A DNA stretch of 5,710 nt from a virus (taxonomy: Duplodnaviria; Heunggongvirae; Uroviricota; Caudoviricetes). This document shows positions 1 to 5,710 of the stretch, piece by piece; position 1 is the first letter of the stretch; every line of letters starts with the position of its first letter. Where the stretch lies: positions 1-5,710 of IMG/VR virus record IMGVR_UViG_2651869755_000011; one strand, given 5' to 3'. The notes below the pieces were generated by a model. That model was not told the DNA's origin. It searched no databases and saw nothing but the letters and a program-made list of their open reading frames with translations. Position numbers and translations under genes: made by a program.

Positions 1-157
1 TATTGCTTACGCCAGAGAAATAACTGGCTGGCTGCTACACCATGTTGCCGGGCAACGAGGGAGACCGTCATCCCTGGTTCAAAGCTCTGCTGAACAATTG
101 CGATCTTTTCCTGTGTGGTACGCCGTCTGCGTTTCTCCGGTCCTAAGACATCAATCA
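1..157 (-). CDS. insC: IS2 OrfA (InsC) transposase regulator, 5' partial (first ~52 codons; rest is outside the window)
   Basis: Minus-strand translation from the ATG at 155-157 gives [52 protein letters not shown], matching the IS2 OrfA N-terminus as I recall it. It is absent from the ORF track because it runs off the window edge. Confidence 0.85.
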
Positions 158-249
158 TCTGCTCTCCAATGACTAGTCTAAAAACTAGTATTAAGACTAT
201 CACTTAAATAAGTGATATTGGTTGTCTGGTGATTCAGGGGGCCAGTCTA
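1..249 (-). mobile_element. IS2 (IS3 family), left end only; the element continues beyond the window start and its terminus is at 249
   Basis: The reverse complement of 231-249 reads TAGACTGGCCCCCTGAATC, which I recognise as the IS2 left terminus. An IS2 OrfA reading frame opens at the minus-strand ATG at 155-157. Identity is from memory of the IS2 sequence, not a search. Confidence 0.9.
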
Positions 250-450: not shown

Positions 451-783
451 AAAGCTGTGCAGTACGTTAAACACGCTTGTGGTTGTGAATGCCGACTGCG
501 GCGGTATTTTGGCGTGACAGCGCAGGTGCCGTATACCGATGTCTGGACGCATAAACCGGTGCAGTTCTATCCCGGGAAACATCCGTGCGAAAAACCGGCA
601 GAAATGCTGCAGCAGATAATCAGCGCAAGCAGTCGTCCGGGAGACCTGGTTGCAGATTTTTTTATGGGCTCAGGTTCAACGGTAAAAGCGGCACTGGCGC
701 TCGGGCGTCGTGCGATTGGCGTTGAACTGGAGACCGGACGTTTTGAGCAGACAGTCAGGGAAGTTCAGGATTTAATCGTTTGA
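451..783 (+). pseudogene. N6-adenine (N6/N4 family) DNA methyltransferase, C-terminal remnant; the N-terminal catalytic region is missing
   Basis: The 108-aa ORF (457-783, GTG start) contains HPCEKP and DFFMGSGST, which resemble the conserved HPTQKP and AdoMet-binding F-x-G-x-G motifs at the C-terminal end of beta-class amino-methyltransferases. The frame is closed at 448-450 and the 200 bp upstream is noncoding, so no DPPY catalytic motif can be present. Confidence 0.65.
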
Positions 784-832: not shown

Positions 833-908
833 GGCCCTTTAGCTCAGTGGTGAGAGCGAGCGACTCATAATCGCCAGGTCGCTGGTTCAAATCCAGCAAG
901 GGCCACCA
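833..908 (+). tRNA. ileZ: tRNA with CAU anticodon, tRNA-Ile2 (lysidine type, AUA decoder) by similarity to E. coli ileX; tRNA-Met cannot be excluded
   Basis: Manual cloverleaf: acceptor GGCCCTT/AAGGGCC, D-stem GCTC/GAGC, anticodon loop CTCATAA (anticodon 866-868), T-arm GCTGG-TTCAAAT-CCAGC, encoded CCA at 906-908. The symbol follows the ileZ-argN-argO cluster described in Stx-type prophages. Confidence 0.85.
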
Positions 909-915
909 TCACATA

Positions 916-992
916 CCGCCATTAGCTCATCAGGAAAGAGCGCCAGCCTTCGAAGCTGGTTGCGCGGAGTTCGGGTCCCCGAAGGCGGTCCA
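916..992 (+). tRNA. argN: tRNA-Arg(UCG)-like, atypical and possibly degenerate
   Basis: Manual fold: perfect 5-bp anticodon stem CCAGC/GCTGG with loop CTTCGAA (anticodon 950-952), canonical U8/A9, D-stem GCTC/GAGC, encoded CCA at 990-992. It also has an A-A mismatch in the acceptor stem, an A-C mismatch in the T-stem and a T-loop of TTCGGGT (G where A58 is normally conserved). Confidence 0.5.
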
Positions 993-1005
993 TTATCTGT
1001 ATCCT

Positions 1006-1082
1006 GCGTTGTTAGCTCAGCCGGACAGAGCAATTGCCTTCTAAGCAATCGGTCACTGGTTCGAATCCAGTACAACGCGCCA
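1006..1082 (+). tRNA. argO: tRNA-Arg(UCU), AGA decoder
   Basis: Manual cloverleaf with perfect acceptor stem GCGTTGT/ACAACGC, D-stem GCTC/GAGC, anticodon stem ATTGC/GCAAT with loop CTTCTAA (anticodon 1040-1042), T-arm ACTGG-TTCGAAT-CCAGT, discriminator G and CCA at 1080-1082. Confidence 0.85.
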
Positions 1083-1097
1083 CACTTATTTTCCCTG

Positions 1098-1121
1098 GCT
1101 CGCTTTTGCGGGCTTTTTTTT
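1098..1121 (+). terminator. Intrinsic terminator directly after the tRNA cluster
   Basis: Stem GCTCGC (1098-1103) pairs with GCGGGC (1108-1113), one G-U pair, loop TTTT, followed by eight T (1114-1121). Confidence 0.6.
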
Positions 1122-1127
1122 AAATGT

Positions 1128-1341
1128 CTCACAATTCAGGCGGTTGACTGTTGTCTGGTTTGCGGGGAGTTTGTTAAAAGAAACTGGCATGGTGAATCCC
1201 CCTGTGCGGAGGGGCAATCAGCGAGTAGGTATATGGGATAATCGCGGATTCAGGTGCTGGTACTGAATTCACCGGGAGGCACCCGGCACCATGCAATGGC
1301 ACATAGCGCCACTCTCCAGCCCCTCTCCGGAGGGGCTTTTC
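1128..1341 (+). repeat. Copy A of a duplicated noncoding module (candidate small-RNA or regulatory unit) ending in an intrinsic terminator
   Basis: Shares ordered blocks with copy B: CTCACAATTCAG, TTGAC(T/A)GTTG, TTTGTTAAAA(G/A)AAA, GCATGGTGAATCCCCCTG(T/A)GCGGAGGGGC, TGAA(T/C)TCACCGGGAGGCACCCGGCACCATG and AGCCCCTCTCCGGAGGGGCTTT. Internal hairpins include CCCCT/AGGGG and CCGGG/CCCGG. Confidence 0.75.
1319..1340 (+). terminator. Intrinsic terminator closing module copy A
   Basis: 7-bp GC-rich stem GCCCCTC (1319-1325) / GAGGGGC (1330-1336), tetraloop TCCG, then TTTT (1337-1340). There is no U-run on the minus strand, so it acts on the plus strand only. Confidence 0.65.
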
Positions 1342-1396
1342 TGTGCCGGATACATCACAGTTTCTGGAACCTTAGGTACTACAGTATCAGTCAGGG

Positions 1397-1405
1397 TGCT
1401 ATATT
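1397..1405 (+). promoter_or_regulatory. Candidate extended -10 promoter (TGcTATATT) for a short transcript ending at the 1532-1558 terminator
   Basis: TG at 1397-1398 and hexamer TATATT at 1400-1405; no convincing -35. About 150 nt downstream is an intrinsic terminator. Confidence 0.3.
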
Positions 1406-1531
1406 TTCAGATGTGATGAAAGCCTGTCAGCAGGCAGGGCGTATCGGAAATGACCCAGTAGAGAAAACGTTGACTCAGATACCGGTGCTGAGTTACCGGG
1501 AAACCGGCATCACATGACCGCTATCCTTCCA

Positions 1532-1558
1532 GGCCCATCCGCTCCGGTGGGCCTTTTT
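1532..1558 (+). terminator. Intrinsic terminator
   Basis: Stem GGCCCA(T)CCG (1532-1541) pairs with CGGTGGGCC (1545-1553), giving 9 bp with one bulged T around loop CTC, followed by TTTTT (1554-1558). Confidence 0.6.
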
Positions 1559-1595
1559 ACTGCAGAAAACAGGTTCCCCGTTAAATGCTATGTTG

Positions 1596-1829
1596 CTCAC
1601 AATTCAGTAAGTTGACAGTTGCCTGTCAGACTGGGCATTTGTTAAAAAAATTTCGCATGGTGAATCCCCCTGAGCGGAGGGGCGACTGGTGACGGTATAA
1701 TCTCTGATTATCAAAACGAGAATGACGCGGGTTTAGTGGCACCGGGCTGAACTCACCGGGAGGCACCCGGCACCATGTGCATGATGATACAGATACGCGG
1801 CTTTAGCCCCTCTCCGGAGGGGCTTTCTT
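1596..1829 (+). repeat. Copy B of the duplicated noncoding module, ending in an intrinsic terminator
   Basis: Same ordered conserved blocks as copy A, with variable sequence between them. It contains a perfect TTGACA (1612-1617) inside the palindrome TGACAG-N4-CTGTCA (1613-1628) and a perfect TATAAT (1696-1701). Confidence 0.75.
1806..1829 (+). terminator. Intrinsic terminator closing module copy B
   Basis: Stem GCCCCTC (1806-1812) / GAGGGGC (1817-1823), loop TCCG, then TTTCTT. Confidence 0.6.
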
Positions 1830-1835
1830 ATGGAC

Positions 1836-1864
1836 AAAAAAAGCCCGCGCTGGGAGACGCGGGC
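1836..1864 (-). terminator. Minus-strand intrinsic terminator, convergent with the copy-B terminator
   Basis: 7-bp stem GCCCGCG (1843-1849) / CGCGGGC (1858-1864) with an 8-nt loop. On the minus strand the hairpin is followed by seven U (plus-strand A-run 1836-1842); there is no U-run on the plus side. Confidence 0.5.
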
Positions 1865-1932
1865 GGCAAGGAATAAACAATAAAACGTGAAGTAATATTT
1901 CAGCTGGCGAATAATACCCCATAGTAATCACT

Positions 1933-1955
1933 CTGCGCAACTGCGCGGTCTTTTT
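1933..1955 (+). terminator. Intrinsic terminator-like hairpin upstream of the esterase gene
   Basis: Stem CTGCGC (1933-1938) / GCGCGG (1943-1948) with one G-U pair, loop AACT, followed by TCTTTTT (1949-1955). Confidence 0.45.
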
Positions 1956-2057
1956 CGAATTGCGGGCTGTAGTCTCCCTTCTGCCATTGTCCTGTAACTT
2001 CCGGACTTCAGCCTGCTCCTTATCTGACTCACAACATTATCCCGCCCGGGAGGATTC

Positions 2058-4969: not shown

Positions 4970-5623
4970 ATGAACGCAAAAATCAGATACGGCCTGTCGG
5001 CTGCCGTTCTGGCGCTGATTGCCGCTGGTGCGCCTGACATTCTCGACCAGTTTCTGGATGAAAAGGAAGGTAACCACACCACGGCATACCGTGATGGCGC
5101 GGGTATCTGGACCATCTGCCGCGGTGCCATCCTGGTGGATGGCAAACCTGTCGTTCCGGGCATGAAGTTGTCGAAGGAAAAATGCGACCGGGTTAACGCC
5201 ATTGAGCGTGATAAGGCGCTGGCATGGGTGGAGAAAAACATCAAAGTGCCATTGACCGAACCCCAGAAAGCGGGGATCGCGTCATTCTGTCCGTACAACA
5301 TTGGTCCCGGTAAGTGTTTCCCGTCGACGTTTTACAGACGAATTAATGCTGGCGATCGCAGGGGAGCATGTGAGGCGATTCGCTGGTGGATTAAGGACGG
5401 TGGCAGAGACTGCCGTATTCGTTCAAATAACTGCTATGGACAGGTCTCACGGCGTGACCAGGTGAACCGCCCCGGGTTTCCTGGAGAGTATTTTATCTGT
5501 GAACTCAGGCTGCCAGATCATCGTTTCCGATGGAAGCATAATAAGCTTTTTCTGCTTCTGCCGGAGGAGTATGGCCCAGCCTTTCCAGCAATCGTCGATT
5601 GTTATACCAGTCCACCCACGTGA
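4970..5623 (+). CDS. R: SAR-type phage endolysin (T4-lysozyme-like muramidase, phage 21 R type), 3' end disrupted by IS insertion: codons 1-164 (4970-5461) are native, the last 53 codons are IS-derived
   Basis: N-terminal signal-anchor-release segment MNAKIRYGLSAAVLALIAAGAP, catalytic E33/D42/T48 spacing (E-8x-D-5x-T) and overall similarity to phage 21 R. The frame runs straight from ...YGQVSRRDQ into the IS terminus TGAACCGCCCC at 5463. Family members are about 165-185 aa, so roughly 10-15 native C-terminal residues appear to be replaced. Confidence 0.8.
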   Translation: MNAKIRYGLSAAVLALIAAGAPDILDQFLDEKEGNHTTAYRDGAGIWTICRGAILVDGKPVVPGMKLSKEKCDRVNAIERDKALAWVEKNIKVPLTEPQKAGIASFCPYNIGPGKCFPSTFYRRINAGDRRGACEAIRWWIKDGGRDCRIRSNNCYGQVSRRDQVNRPGFPGEYFICELRLPDHRFRWKHNKLFLLLPEEYGPAFPAIVDCYTSPPT

Positions 5624-5710
5624 GTGTGGCCAGTTCCACTTCTGCACGGTTTTTCCAGCTCTTACGGTGTATTACCTCCGCTTTGTAAAGACCATTGATG
5701 CTCTCCGCCA
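5463..5710 (-). mobile_element. IS629/IS1203-like IS3-family element, right end only (continues beyond the window end), inserted into the endolysin gene
   Basis: Terminal inverted repeat TGAACCGCCCCGGGTTTCCTGGAGAGT at 5463-5489. The minus strand encodes the C-terminus of an IS3-family OrfB transposase ending LERLGHTPPAEAEKAYYASIGNDDLAA, which I recognise as IS629-like from memory. Confidence 0.85.
5505..5710 (-). CDS. IS3-family transposase OrfB, C-terminal fragment (5' part outside the window)
   Basis: Minus-strand translation AESINGLYKAEVIHRKSWKNRAEVELATLTWVDWYNNRRLLERLGHTPPAEAEKAYYASIGNDDLAA with stop codon at 5505-5507 (TGA on the minus strand). Confidence 0.85.
   Translation of the reverse strand, partial: AESINGLYKAEVIHRKSWKNRAEVELATLTWVDWYNNRRLLERLGHTPPAEAEKAYYASIGNDDLAA

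What the first reader, a model, noticed from the sequence alone, without database searches (positions are those of the whole stretch)
1128..1829. Twice-repeated ~215-235 bp noncoding module, each copy ending in a strong intrinsic terminator: candidate paralogous small RNAs
Two copies (1128-1341 and 1596-1829) share the same ordered conserved blocks (CTCACAATTCAG; TTGAC(T/A); TTTGTTAAAA; GCATGGTGAATCCCCCTGnGCGGAGGGGC; TCACCGGGAGGCACCCGGCACCATG; the terminator GCCCCTC-TCCG-GAGGGGC), with divergent sequence between the blocks and about 250 bp of unrelated spacer between copies. Conservation sits on hairpin-forming segments, not on an ORF: the short ATG-initiated frames after GGGAGG differ completely between copies (MQWHIAPLSS... 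versus MCMMIQIRGF...). That pattern fits a structured RNA or protein-binding regulatory module, not a protein gene. The module sits where Stx phages carry stxAB, downstream of the tRNA cluster, and I cannot assign it to a known element from memory. Prophage-encoded regulatory sRNAs are known in EHEC, so this is a plausible undescribed or under-annotated pair.
Basis: seen in the sequence. Interest (0 to 1): 0.7.

Follow-up and report, generated by a model that had tools for sequence, protein, structure and literature searches.

The report
Known prophage small-RNA genes, three in tandem
The repeated module is a tandem array of already described prophage small regulatory RNA genes (the STnc100 family, known in EHEC as EcOnc05/EcOnc27/sRNA103), and the "unrelated spacer" between the two copies holds a third, strongly diverged member that current annotation misses.

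Summary
The two modules are real, far beyond chance, and non-coding. They are not undescribed. Both match the curated Rfam family STnc100 (RF02076) over the full model, at 136 and 165 bits against a threshold of 47. Copy 1 is 99.7% identical to the Sakai Sp4 gene for EcOnc05, an Hfq-crosslinked, Northern-verified sRNA. Homologs include EcOnc27/sRNA103 downstream of stx2 and, more distantly, PasD1/PasD2 of EPEC.

Structure is well supported. RNAalifold recovers a closing helix, three hairpins and the terminator. On 54 distinct homologs, 19 of 26 core pairs show compensatory changes.

Two things are new here. The "spacer" (about 1397-1560) is a third paralog with the same fold. It keeps 24 of 26 pairs, 7 of them changed on both sides. 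It has an extended -10 box and its own terminator. It falls below the Rfam threshold and is unannotated, yet occurs in 673 of 5426 complete E. coli genomes. Also, the conserved 5' scaffold and the variable 3' segment reassort among homologs.

Most likely mechanism: independently transcribed "moron" sRNAs that bind Hfq and pair with mRNAs through the variable 3' segment. This step is inferred, and no direct target is validated.

Verdict: already-known family, with low to moderate interest from the third copy and the modular architecture.

The parts
833..1082 (+). Context: prophage tRNA cluster. tRNA-Met(CAT) at 833-908 (annotated tRNA-Ile in RefSeq), tRNA-Arg(TCG) at 916-992, tRNA-Arg(TCT) at 1006-1082.
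   Evidence: ARAGORN; Rfam tRNA hits; RefSeq annotation of the identical ML35 locus.
1097..1122 (+). Terminator-like hairpin plus T8 that closes the tRNA cluster, directly upstream of sRNA gene 1.
   Evidence: stem 1097-1114, tail TTTTTTTTAAA.
1128..1186 (+). Gene 1 upstream/leader region. It holds the conserved block CTCACAATTCAG (1128-1139), GTTGAC (1143-1148) and the extended -10-like box TGtTAAAAG (1172-1180). It is either the 5' leader of a ~211-nt transcript or promoter DNA for a ~155-nt transcript. The 5' end is unresolved.
   Evidence: Blocks are conserved across 57 distinct upstream sequences. The Northern size of ~222 nt for the 99.7% identical Sakai gene EcOnc05 favours the long form. 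The PasD2 5' end, mapped by RNA-seq at the G of GCAUGGUG, favours the short form for the other promoter class.
1187..1294 (+). Gene 1 scaffold. Closing helix GCAUGGUG/CACCAUGC encloses hairpin CCCCU..AGGGG, a variable hairpin, hairpin GGAUUCAG..CUGAAUUC and hairpin CCGGG-AGGCA-CCCGG.
   Evidence: Rfam STnc100 136.3 bits; MFE fold; RNAalifold and covariation; own core model 119.6 bits.
1295..1317 (+). Gene 1 variable 3' segment (AAUGGCACAUAGCGCCACUCUCC). It is the candidate seed region and ends in single-stranded CUCUCC.
   Evidence: Unpaired or weakly paired in the MFE fold. This 3' module type is found joined to 5 different scaffold types. The PasD seed lies at the equivalent position.
1318..1343 (+). 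Gene 1 intrinsic terminator AGCCCCUC-UCCG-GAGGGGCU followed by UUUCUG.
1397..1405 (+). Extended -10-like box TGcTATATT of the middle gene, about 6 nt before its closing helix. It is 100% conserved between the two variants of this element, while sequence further upstream diverges.
   Evidence: Sequence; alignment of variants.
1411..1515 (+). Middle gene scaffold, a diverged third paralog. Closing helix AUGUGAUG/CAUCACAU, hairpin CCUGUC-AGCA-GGCAGG, hairpin GACUCAG..CUGAGUU and hairpin CCGG-GAAA-CCGG.
   Evidence: Rfam STnc100 30.1 bits, full-length but below the threshold of 47. Own core model, built without this element, scores 34.9 bits with E about 2e-7, and the next window hit scores 9.9 bits. 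The MFE has the same architecture, z -2.7. 24 of 26 model pairs are canonical and 7 are changed on both sides relative to copy 1, at 59.5% core identity.
1516..1530 (+). Middle gene single-stranded 3' segment GACCGCUAUCCUUCC. It is CU-rich and anti-Shine-Dalgarno-like, the candidate seed. It is invariant between the two variants.
1531..1560 (+). Middle gene intrinsic terminator AGGCCCAUC-CGCUCC-GGUGGGCCU followed by UUUUU.
   Evidence: 9 pairs, 6 G-C.
1596..1654 (+). Gene 3 upstream/leader region: CTCACAATTCAG (1596-1607), GTTGAC (1611-1616) and TGtTAAAAA (1640-1648). A TGcTATGTT box at 1586-1594 lies just upstream.
1655..1778 (+). Gene 3 scaffold, with the same helices as gene 1 and a longer variable hairpin.
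   Evidence: Rfam STnc100 165.4 bits; core model 121.9 bits; MFE fold.
1779..1804 (+). Gene 3 variable 3' segment GCAUGAUGAUACAGAUACGCGGCUUU, predicted unpaired. It is the candidate seed and differs from that of gene 1.
   Evidence: This 3' module type is found with 5 different scaffold types.
1805..1830 (+). Gene 3 intrinsic terminator. The hairpin is identical to that of gene 1; the tail is UUCUUA.
1836..1924 (-). Convergent minus-strand sRNA-like element ending in terminator GCCCGCGUCUCCCAGCGCGGGC plus U7. It is the partner of gene 3 in a 'dyad'. Its 5' end is not defined and may reach the esterase start near 2058.
   Evidence: Terminator. 90.7% identity over 54 nt to the EPEC RIL-seq sRNA candidate E2348C_1409.E2348C_1408.IGR. 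The homologous Sakai Sp4 stretch is the Hfq-crosslinking peak EcOnc08. It is not AsxR/AgvB.

Best explanation
Window 1128-1830 is a tandem array of three paralogous small-RNA genes of the STnc100/PasD family. They sit in the 'moron' insertion site of a lambdoid prophage, between the phage tRNA cluster and the nanS-p-type esterase and lysis genes.

Each unit has its own promoter-like elements, a conserved multi-helix 5' scaffold, a variable and largely single-stranded 3' segment, and an intrinsic terminator. The scaffold is one closing helix around three hairpins. A fourth, unrelated sRNA gene converges on the array from the minus strand.

Shown here: family membership, the fold and its covariation, the third copy, the genomic context, and the reassortment of scaffold and 3' modules.

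Taken from published work on identical or homologous genes: these RNAs are made in lysogens as discrete ~170-250-nt species and crosslink to Hfq.

Inferred: each RNA acts in trans by Hfq-assisted base pairing through its variable 3' segment. The three paralogs would therefore address different mRNA sets, and the scaffold would provide stability or chaperone binding. Also inferred: the stacked terminators keep tRNA and sRNA transcription out of the lysis genes in the lysogen, while Q-modified RNA polymerase reads through them after induction.
For: Family: Rfam RF02076 gives full-length hits of 165.4 and 136.3 bits against a threshold of 47.

Identity to studied genes: window 1006-1340 is 99.7% identical to Sakai Sp4, and the EcOnc05 Northern probe matches window 1216-1250 exactly. 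The STnc_100 qPCR primers of PMC12370729 match 1188-1207 and 1261-1280 exactly.

Fold: RNAalifold on 22 diverse homologs recovers the helices. Of the cells, 96.6% are paired, against 39-54% when partners are slid. There are 17 double-change cells against 3.4 in shuffles, 0 of 500 shuffles reaching that. On 54 distinct sequences aligned to a core model, 19 of 26 pairs carry compensatory changes and 98.4% of cells are paired.

Third copy.

Not coding: scaffold lengths among homologs are 102-128 nt and differ by non-multiples of three. No Pfam family matches above threshold. The frames differ between copies.

Context: Q, tRNAs, esterase, holin and lysozyme in the identical ML35 locus. In Stx2a phage L002, stx2AB lies between the tRNAs and an STnc100 gene.

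Expression and Hfq, from the literature: convergent Hfq-bound sRNA pairs lie at the moron site in at least 8 Sakai prophages, and EcOnc05 gives ~222 nt and EcOnc27 ~235/247 nt, the latter destabilised without hfq (PMC4104026). Eleven STnc100 copies are transcribed in EDL933, one confirmed by Northern (PMC5331693). PasD1/PasD2 are abundant, recovered in Hfq RIL-seq chimeras, and have a seed just 5' of the terminator (PMC8550237).

Modularity: scaffold types and 3' module types recombine freely. The 3' module of gene 1 occurs with 5 scaffolds and so does that of gene 3.
Against: There are no expression data for this exact locus or for the middle gene.

The 5' ends are unresolved. No canonical -35/-10 pair was found on the plus strand. 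Two candidate extended -10 boxes per unit give RNAs of about 155/175 or about 211/231 nt.

The U-tails of genes 1 and 3 are short and interrupted (4 U and 3 U), which is poor for classical Hfq 3'-end binding and for efficient termination.

No direct target of any STnc100 member is validated. Overexpressed sRNA103 raises fimZ and espA by an unknown route (PMC7873438).

The most conserved part is the scaffold, not the putative seed. This is the reverse of typical seed-conserved sRNAs and could mean that the scaffold carries the main function.

Some EDL933 copies show ribosome footprints (PMC5331693). PHROG families of unknown function exist for ORFs over these elements.
Confidence: 0.8

Rival explanations
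1. The conserved scaffold, not the variable 3' segment, is the functional part. On this view it is a structured RNA module that binds or titrates a protein, or directs processing or stability. The 3' segments would then be incidental.
For: The scaffold is the most conserved part, with many invariant columns, while the 3' segments are swapped freely. The same fold recurs in a non-sRNA context. The dicF-dicB intercistronic spacer scores 43.6 bits in K-12 Qin (L128:654-784) and 39.6-43.8 bits in related prophage contigs, with 24-25 of 26 pairs canonical and an MFE z of -3.9.
Against: No protein partner or cleavage site is known for the scaffold. The RNase III site of the dicBF transcript lies upstream of DicF, not in this spacer (bioRxiv 10.1101/2023.04.14.536235). 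The PasD RIL-seq chimeras and predicted seed map to the 3' end. This rival does not exclude seed pairing; both could hold.
Confidence: 0.15
2. The units act mainly in cis at the DNA or transcription level. They would form a stack of terminators, and perhaps promoters, that insulates the lysis cassette from upstream transcription in the lysogen. The short RNAs would be by-products.
For: Four plus-strand terminators lie within 750 bp between the constitutively expressed tRNAs and the esterase and lysis genes, plus one on the minus strand. The position is downstream of Q/PR'. Arrays of 1 to 4 units occur at this site.
Against: A terminator needs only about 30 nt. This does not explain roughly 110 nt of scaffold maintained by compensatory substitutions, nor the published stable, abundant, Hfq-associated RNAs.
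Confidence: 0.1
3. The modules encode small proteins or are remnants of a protein gene.
For: An SD-like GGGAGG lies upstream of an ATG in each copy. PHROG families of unknown function match ORFs overlapping the elements, for example phrog_23557 at E 7e-30 over the middle element. PGAP places pseudo-CDS on the minus strand. Some EDL933 copies have ribosome coverage values above 1.
Against: The frames after the ATG are unrelated between copies. The GGGAGG and the ATG are sequestered in conserved helices. Homolog scaffold lengths differ by non-multiples of 3. No Pfam family reaches threshold; the best is YmjE-like at 14 bits against 27. Between the two variants of the middle element, the changes inside the 33-codon ORF are mostly non-synonymous yet preserve the RNA hairpin. 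PHROG families are built from predicted ORFs and can reflect conserved non-coding DNA.
Confidence: 0.03

Closest known systems
STnc100 (Rfam RF02076), known in EHEC as EcOnc05 (Sp4), EcOnc27/sRNA103 (3' of stx2B), EcOnc04 and EcOnc06
   Same: Genes 1 and 3 are full-length members at 136 and 165 bits. Gene 1 is 99.7% identical to the Sakai EcOnc05 gene. They share the fold, the position after the phage tRNAs or stxAB and before the esterase and lysis genes, and a convergent partner sRNA.
   Different: Here three units stand in tandem, whereas Sakai Sp4 and the Stx2a phage L002 have one. The middle unit falls below the Rfam threshold. The Rfam model's first 29 positions may not match the true 5' end; a longer leader or a start at GCAUGG are both possible.
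PasD1/PasD2 of EPEC E2348/69 (homologs reported in EHEC as EcOnc13)
   Same: They have the same scaffold architecture and the same 5' motif GCAUGGUGAAUCC. They score 35.8 bits with the core model, the same level as the middle gene. They occupy the same locus type upstream of the esterase. Zhu et al. 2026 already proposed common ancestry with STnc100.
   Different: PasD has a TTGACT-17-TTAAAA promoter, lacks the CCGGG-AGGCA-CCCGG hairpin, and carries the UGUGAG seed and a U8 tail. None of these is in the window.
AsxR/AgvB 'anti-sRNAs' (Tree et al. 2014)
   Same: They occupy the same moron site and have the same 'dyad' arrangement of convergent sRNAs. They follow the same modular logic of one conserved part and one variable part.
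   Different: They are a different family: 51-60 nt, on the opposite strand, with a conserved 3' part and a variable 5' part. Their conserved 3' motif is absent from the window. The window's convergent partner is of the EcOnc08 / EPEC IGR type.
dicF-dicB intercistronic region of the Qin/dicBF operon (E. coli K-12)
   Same: The STnc100 scaffold model hits it at 43.6 bits, E about 4e-10, with the CACCUGGAGGCACCAGGCAC hairpin and the long-range closing helix.
   Different: It is an internal spacer of an mRNA rather than a free-standing gene. It has no terminator of its own, a much longer closing helix (about 21 bp) and lies in a different region of the prophage. No function has been assigned to it.

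Membership tests
STnc100 (Rfam RF02076) | Score at or above the curated gathering threshold (47 bits) over the full covariance model | tested here: met
   1626-1835 scores 165.4 bits and 1158-1348 scores 136.3 bits, both over model positions 1-206.
STnc100 (Rfam RF02076), middle element only | Score at or above the gathering threshold | tested here: not met
   1387-1560 scores 30.1 bits, below 47, though the match is full length with E 1e-3 across 4227 families. A core model built without this element gives 34.9 bits, E about 2e-7. It is a diverged relative, not a member by Rfam's cut-off.
STnc100 (Rfam RF02076) | Consensus secondary structure kept by compensatory substitutions | tested here: met
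   RNAalifold recovers the helices independently. Cells paired are 96.6% and 98.4%, with 6 of 34 and 19 of 26 pairs changed on both sides, and 0 of 500 shuffles reach the observed covariation score. Caveat: alignment A4 is fitted to the model.
STnc100 (Rfam RF02076) | Encoded in lambdoid prophage late regions (moron site), ending in a Rho-independent terminator | tested here: met
   Context; terminators; the same position in the Stx2a phage and Sakai Sp4.
STnc100 (Rfam RF02076) | Discrete transcript of about 170-250 nt | not testable with these tools
   Published for near-identical or homologous genes only: EcOnc05 ~222 nt, EcOnc27 ~235/247 nt, and an STnc100_4 Northern.
Hfq-dependent trans-acting sRNA | Hfq binding in vivo | not testable with these tools
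   Hfq CRAC peaks cover the Sakai homolog of gene 1, at L126:307-415. PasD is recovered in RIL-seq. There are no data for this locus or for the middle gene.
Hfq-dependent trans-acting sRNA | Terminator hairpin followed by a long U-tail | tested here: inconclusive
   The hairpins are present. The tails are UUUUCUG (gene 1), UUUUUAC (middle) and UUUCUUA (gene 3), all shorter than the U8 of PasD.
Hfq-dependent trans-acting sRNA | Seed that pairs with defined mRNA targets | not tested
   No host genome was available in the sandbox for target prediction. No validated direct target exists in the literature read.
PasD (EPEC) | Seed UGUGAG 5' of the terminator, with BLAST-level identity to PasD1/PasD2 | tested here: not met
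   No match to CCTTGTGAGTTCTGGCTGCGCA at up to 3 mismatches. Only the first 26-42 nt align by blastn.
AsxR/AgvB anti-sRNA | Conserved 3' region AGTATCTCATGCWWTTGCCCGAACCCAYTCGGGC | tested here: not met
   0 matches at up to 3 mismatches on either strand. No Rfam AgvB or AsxR hit.

The most novel reading that the evidence does not exclude
The locus is a three-gene array, and its middle member represents an unrecognised subfamily. It is as far from STnc100 as PasD is, falls below Rfam's threshold, is unannotated, and occurs in about 12% of complete E. coli genomes.

The STnc100 scaffold would then be a reusable structured RNA module of lambdoid prophages. It is recombined with interchangeable 3' seed/terminator cassettes to generate new regulators. 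It also occurs as the dicF-dicB intercistronic structure of K-12 Qin, which implies a scaffold-borne function (protein binding or processing) that nobody has examined.
Probability: 0.45. Interest if true: 0.45.

Novelty: already known. Interest (0 to 1): 0.2.

Why it matters
For the finding as submitted, it matters little. The pair belongs to a curated RNA family with a decade of EHEC and EPEC literature, so it should be annotated rather than reported as new.

It still has some value. The family sits next to stx2, and sequence variants in it were recently among the strongest predictors of HUS in O157:H7 (PMC12711010). Even so, its targets, true 5' ends and mechanism remain unknown.

This window offers a natural experiment: three paralogs with one scaffold and three different 3' segments. 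It also adds an overlooked diverged member and a link to the dicF-dicB spacer of K-12. These make the question "what does the conserved scaffold do?" testable in a non-pathogenic background.

There is also a practical point. Gene callers and PHROG/PGAP place spurious ORFs over these sRNA genes.

Tried and rejected
1. I first proposed a transcription start at the G of GCAUGGUG for all units, from the TGnTAAAA box and the RNA-seq-mapped PasD2 5' end. I withdrew this as a general claim. The ~222-nt Northern size for the near-identical EcOnc05 and ~235/247 nt for EcOnc27 fit a start near the CTCACAATTCAG block, about 55 nt further upstream. A probe listed as 'EcOnc13' is complementary to the leader of an L024-type gene, but it does not match the Sp3 EcOnc13 locus, so I did not use it as evidence.

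2. I suspected the minus-strand element at 1836-1893 was AsxR, because the identical sequence follows STnc100 in a Stx2a phage. I rejected this. The published AsxR/AgvB sequences are unrelated and absent from the window.

3. I looked for a PasA homolog between the esterase and the holin, as in EPEC. blastn gives no match.

4. I recalled that RNase III cuts downstream of DicF, which would have given the scaffold a processing role. This was wrong: the mapped RNase III site is upstream of DicF.

5. I looked by eye for a sigma-54 promoter, prompted by the RpoN ChIP-exo note for Salmonella STnc100. There is no GG-N10-GC match.

6. I tested protein-coding readings against Pfam (no family above threshold) and PHROGs (only unknown-function families built from predicted ORFs).

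7. The standard -35/-10 scan found no plus-strand promoter in 780-2100.

8. A full-text search for sequence strings from the middle element found no paper.
Full report
OBSERVATION. The repeat finder reports an 88-nt direct repeat (1128-1215 / 1596-1683, 80% identity), a 31-nt repeat (1263-1293 / 1747-1777, 97%) and identical terminator hairpins at 1318-1339 / 1805-1826. A global alignment of 1128-1341 with 1596-1829 gives 71% identity, with conserved blocks and divergent segments alternating. The two longest blocks each occur exactly twice in the window, against 0.00 expected in 200 dinucleotide-preserving shuffles. Terminator-like hairpins are called at 1318-1337 and 1805-1824, and ten terminator-like sites are found in 780-2100 against 1.0 expected. 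The short ORFs that follow GGGAGG..ATG are unrelated between copies. The modules start 45 nt after a cluster of three tRNAs.

IDENTITY. An Rfam scan of the whole window assigns both copies to RF02076, 'Gammaproteobacterial sRNA STnc100', over the full 206-position model. The scores are 165.4 bits (1626-1835) and 136.3 bits (1158-1348), against a gathering score of 47. So this is a curated, published family.

The literature held in the library ties the window's own sequence to experiments:
- The qPCR primers used for 'STnc_100' in STEC outer-membrane vesicles match window 1188-1207 and 1261-1280 exactly (PMC12370729).
- The Northern probe for EcOnc05 of E. coli O157 Sakai is the exact reverse complement of window 1216-1250 (PMC4104026 supplement).
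- Window 1006-1340 is 99.7% identical to the Sakai Sp4 region carrying argO and the EcOnc05 gene.
- EcOnc05 was found by Hfq UV-crosslinking and gives a ~222-nt band. Its relative EcOnc27 (sRNA103), 3' of stx2B, gives ~235/247-nt bands, the longer one destabilised without hfq.
- Overexpressed sRNA103 raises fimZ and espA by an unknown route (PMC7873438; PMC12711010).
- EDL933 carries eleven Rfam-annotated copies. All are transcribed and one is confirmed by Northern blot (PMC5331693).
- A 2026 preprint proposes that the EPEC sRNAs PasD1/PasD2 share ancestry with STnc100. These are abundant, recovered in Hfq RIL-seq and Northern-verified (bioRxiv 10.64898/2026.05.13.724894; PMC8550237).
- k-mers overlapping the STnc100/EcOnc27 gene downstream of stx2a were among the strongest predictors of HUS in an O157:H7 machine-learning study (PMC12711010).

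DISTRIBUTION AND ANNOTATION. A megablast of window 1083-2057 finds matches in 2870 of 5426 complete E. coli genomes, with a median of 2 places per genome and up to 14. In 353 genomes at least 80% of the query is present, and many are 100% identical (ML35, VR50 and others). In ML35 the locus reads Q, kinase, phosphatase, methylase remnant, three tRNAs, this array, SASA-family esterase, holin, YdfR-family protein, lysozyme. RefSeq annotates nothing over the array except a pseudo 'hypothetical protein' on the opposite strand. 'Undescribed' is not.

STRUCTURE. I collected homologs from IMG/VR with a 16-mer from the 5' block. This gave 89 distinct family sequences, which I reduced to 34 clusters at 93% identity.

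RNAalifold on 22 diverse representatives, including PasD2, predicts without prior information:
- a long-range closing helix GCAUGGUG/CACCAUGC;
- a hairpin CCCC..GGGG;
- a hairpin GGRUUCAG..CUGAAYUC;
- the CCGGG-AGGCA-CCCGG hairpin;
- the terminator.

On that MAFFT alignment, 96.6% of cells are standard pairs, against 39-54% when 3' partners are slid by 1-3 columns. There are 17 cells changed on both sides against 3.4 in column shuffles, and 0 of 500 shuffles reach this.

I then built a covariance model of the core alone, searched 100 loci with it and aligned the matches. On the 54 distinct sequences of that alignment, 19 of 26 pairs carry changes on both sides and 98.4% of cells are paired, against 32-48% when slid. 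That alignment is fitted to the model, so it leans towards the structure. The MAFFT-based result does not share this bias.

The RNA-structure reading stands.

THE 'SPACER' IS A THIRD GENE. Rfam gave a weak full-length STnc100 hit at 1387-1560 (30.1 bits, below threshold). Folded alone, 1400-1562 adopts the same architecture in its minimum-energy structure (z -2.7):
- closing helix AUGUGAUG/CAUCACAU;
- a first hairpin;
- hairpin GACUCAG..CUGAGUU;
- hairpin CCGG-GAAA-CCGG;
- a 15-nt single strand, GACCGCUAUCCUUCC;
- a 9-bp terminator with U5.

The core model, built without this element, scores it at 34.9 bits with E about 2e-7. The next best hit in the window scores 9.9 bits. That is the same level as PasD1/PasD2, at 35.8 bits. 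In the model alignment, 24 of its 26 pairs are canonical and 7 differ from gene 1 on both sides, at only 59.5% core identity.

A perfect extended -10-like box, TGcTATATT (1397-1405), lies about 6 nt before the closing helix. It is invariant between the two known variants of the element, while sequence further upstream diverges. Between those variants the first hairpin changes by compensatory substitutions and the 3' single strand is invariant.

The element occurs in 673 of 5426 complete E. coli genomes in two variants (100% and 90% identity), always unannotated. It also occurs in five phage records. No paper in the library contains its sequence.

Compared with Sakai Sp4, which has only gene 1 followed directly by the convergent sRNA and the esterase, the window carries the middle gene and gene 3 as about 468 extra bases between two identical terminators.

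TRANSCRIPTION UNITS. The 3' ends are clear, but the U-tracts of genes 1 and 3 are short and interrupted.

The 5' ends are not settled. The homologs have two upstream classes. In the PasD-like class, TTGAC(T)-17-TTAAAA precedes GCAUGG, and the RNA-seq-defined PasD2 5' end is the G of GCAUGGUG. The class found in the window reads (TG)TTAAAT-n2-CTCACAATTCAG-n3-GTTGAC-n-GTTGYCTG-n13-TTTGTTAAAA-n6-GCAUGG.

That class holds two extended -10-like boxes. One would start the RNA inside CTCACAAT, giving RNAs of about 211 and 231 nt. The other would start it at GCAUGG, giving about 155 and 175 nt. The published band sizes for the near-identical EcOnc05 (~222 nt) and for EcOnc27 (~235/247 nt) favour the long forms.

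The standard -35/-10 scan finds no plus-strand promoter. The role of the conserved CTCACAATTCAG and GTTGAC blocks is unexplained. If the long form is real, the A-rich stretch GUUAAAAGAAAC would be in the RNA. It contains consecutive A-R-N triplets of the kind Tree et al. associate with Hfq binding. This last point is my inference only.

CONTEXT. The array sits in the 'moron' site 3' of Q/PR'. Tree et al. described convergent pairs of Hfq-bound sRNAs at this site in at least eight Sakai prophages (PMC7873438).

In the Stx2a phage L002 the order is tRNAs, stx2A, stx2B, then one STnc100 gene whose leader block begins 44 nt after stx2B, then the same minus-strand element as in the window. So stxAB is an insertion between the tRNAs and an STnc100 gene, not an alternative to it.

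Copy number varies. There is one unit in Sakai Sp4 and in L002. There are three in the window and in phage PhiR5_2. Four STnc100-type units lie in tandem at about 265-nt spacing in L066, and two at 273 nt in L116.

MODULARITY. I split each homolog at the end of the closing helix and clustered the two halves separately. This gave 12 scaffold types and 11 3' types that combine freely. The 3' module of gene 1 occurs with five scaffold types, and so does that of gene 3. The scaffold of gene 1 occurs with five 3' types. For example, L023 joins the scaffold of gene 3 to the 3' module of gene 1. The invariant blocks and the identical terminators are the likely recombination substrates; this is inference.

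MECHANISM. Shown: three independent-looking units, each with a conserved folded scaffold, a different single-stranded 3' segment and a terminator.

From the literature on identical or homologous genes: expression in lysogens, Hfq association, and for PasD a seed immediately 5' of the terminator.

Inferred: each RNA is an Hfq-assisted base-pairing regulator whose specificity lies in the 3' segment. These segments are CUCUCC-ending in gene 1, UAUCCUUCC in the middle gene (both anti-Shine-Dalgarno-like), and an unrelated 26-nt segment in gene 3. The array would therefore encode three regulators with one chassis.

A secondary cis role is plausible. The stacked terminators shield the lysis genes from tRNA and sRNA transcription until Q-modified polymerase reads through.

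I put 0.95 on 'STnc100-family sRNA genes' and about 0.55 on the seed-pairing mechanism.

RIVALS.
(a) The scaffold carries the function. Scaffold conservation exceeds seed conservation, and the core model also hits the dicF-dicB spacer of K-12 Qin (43.6 bits, E about 4e-10) and of related prophages (DicF at 77 bits just upstream; fold z -3.9). No partner is known, and my recollection of an RNase III site there was wrong.
(b) A purely cis terminator stack. This does not explain about 110 nt of covarying scaffold.
(c) Small proteins. Against this: the frames are not conserved, scaffold length differences are not multiples of three, and no Pfam family reaches threshold. PHROG hits are unknown-function families of predicted ORFs.

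VERDICT. The pair is already known. The third, diverged gene, the modular reassortment and the link to the dicF-dicB spacer are modest additions worth a note.

Noticed in passing
window 1836-1924, minus strand (possibly extending to about 2100): A convergent sRNA-like element ends in a strong terminator (GCCCGCGUCUCCCAGCGCGGGC plus U7). It is 90.7% identical over 54 nt to the EPEC RIL-seq sRNA candidate E2348C_1409.E2348C_1408.IGR. The homologous stretch in Sakai Sp4 is the Hfq-crosslinking peak EcOnc08 (~271-nt band), which would be antisense to the 5' UTR and start of the esterase gene. It is not AsxR/AgvB. A promoter-like site lies on the minus strand at 2064-2036.
   Followed up: partly
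L128 (E. coli K-12 MG1655) 654-784 = genome 1649453-1649583; also L013:12612-12751, L015:12241-12380, L071:20-150: The STnc100 core model hits the intercistronic spacer between dicF and dicB of the Qin/dicBF operon (43.6 bits in K-12; 24-25 of 26 pairs canonical in the prophage contigs). The same structured module therefore also occurs inside an mRNA, about 11.6 kb from the sRNA array in the same prophage type. I found no mention of this in the papers read.
   Followed up: partly
window 3-158 (minus strand) and 5518-5710 (minus strand): Both ends of the window are insertion-sequence DNA in the same orientation. The left end holds the start of an IS2 TnpA (113 bits to the IS2 repressor TnpA model). 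The right end holds the C-terminus of an IS3-family transposase. The right-hand IS appears to replace the 3' end of the lysozyme gene: the ORF 4970-5623 runs into it, whereas in ML35 the lysozyme ends at the equivalent of 5503.
   Followed up: partly
window 457-783, plus strand: Only a C-terminal fragment of a DNA adenine methyltransferase is present. It is annotated as an incomplete pseudogene in the identical ML35 locus.
   Followed up: no
window 833-908: ARAGORN calls tRNA-Met (anticodon CAT). RefSeq annotates the identical gene as tRNA-Ile, the ileZ-type reading in which CAT is modified to lysidine.
   Followed up: no
window 1086-1302 and 1626-1766 (minus strand), 1254-1517 (plus strand): Short ORFs over the sRNA genes match PHROG families of unknown function (phrog_27294, phrog_24488, phrog_23557), and PGAP places pseudo-CDS there. 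These look like gene-calling artefacts on conserved non-coding RNA genes.
   Followed up: partly
window 1121-1139 and 1581-1607; loci: The block CTCACAATTCAG, preceded in most homologs by TGTTAAAT, is as conserved as the RNA core, and its role is unknown. It may be a promoter or transcription start, or a regulator site. Its first six bases equal the CUCACA motif enriched in PasD RIL-seq targets.
   Followed up: no
L066 6983-7882 (IMG/VR contig 2529293141_000008): Four STnc100-family units lie in tandem at about 265-nt spacing, with a fifth 2 kb upstream. All have different 3' segments. This is the largest array seen.
   Followed up: no
window 1197-1218 versus 1318-1339: The first scaffold hairpin (CCCCCUGUGCGGAGGGGC) is 73% identical to the gene's own terminator hairpin (GCCCCUCUCCGGAGGGGC). 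This suggests an internal duplication, or a terminator-like hairpin without a U-tail.
   Followed up: no
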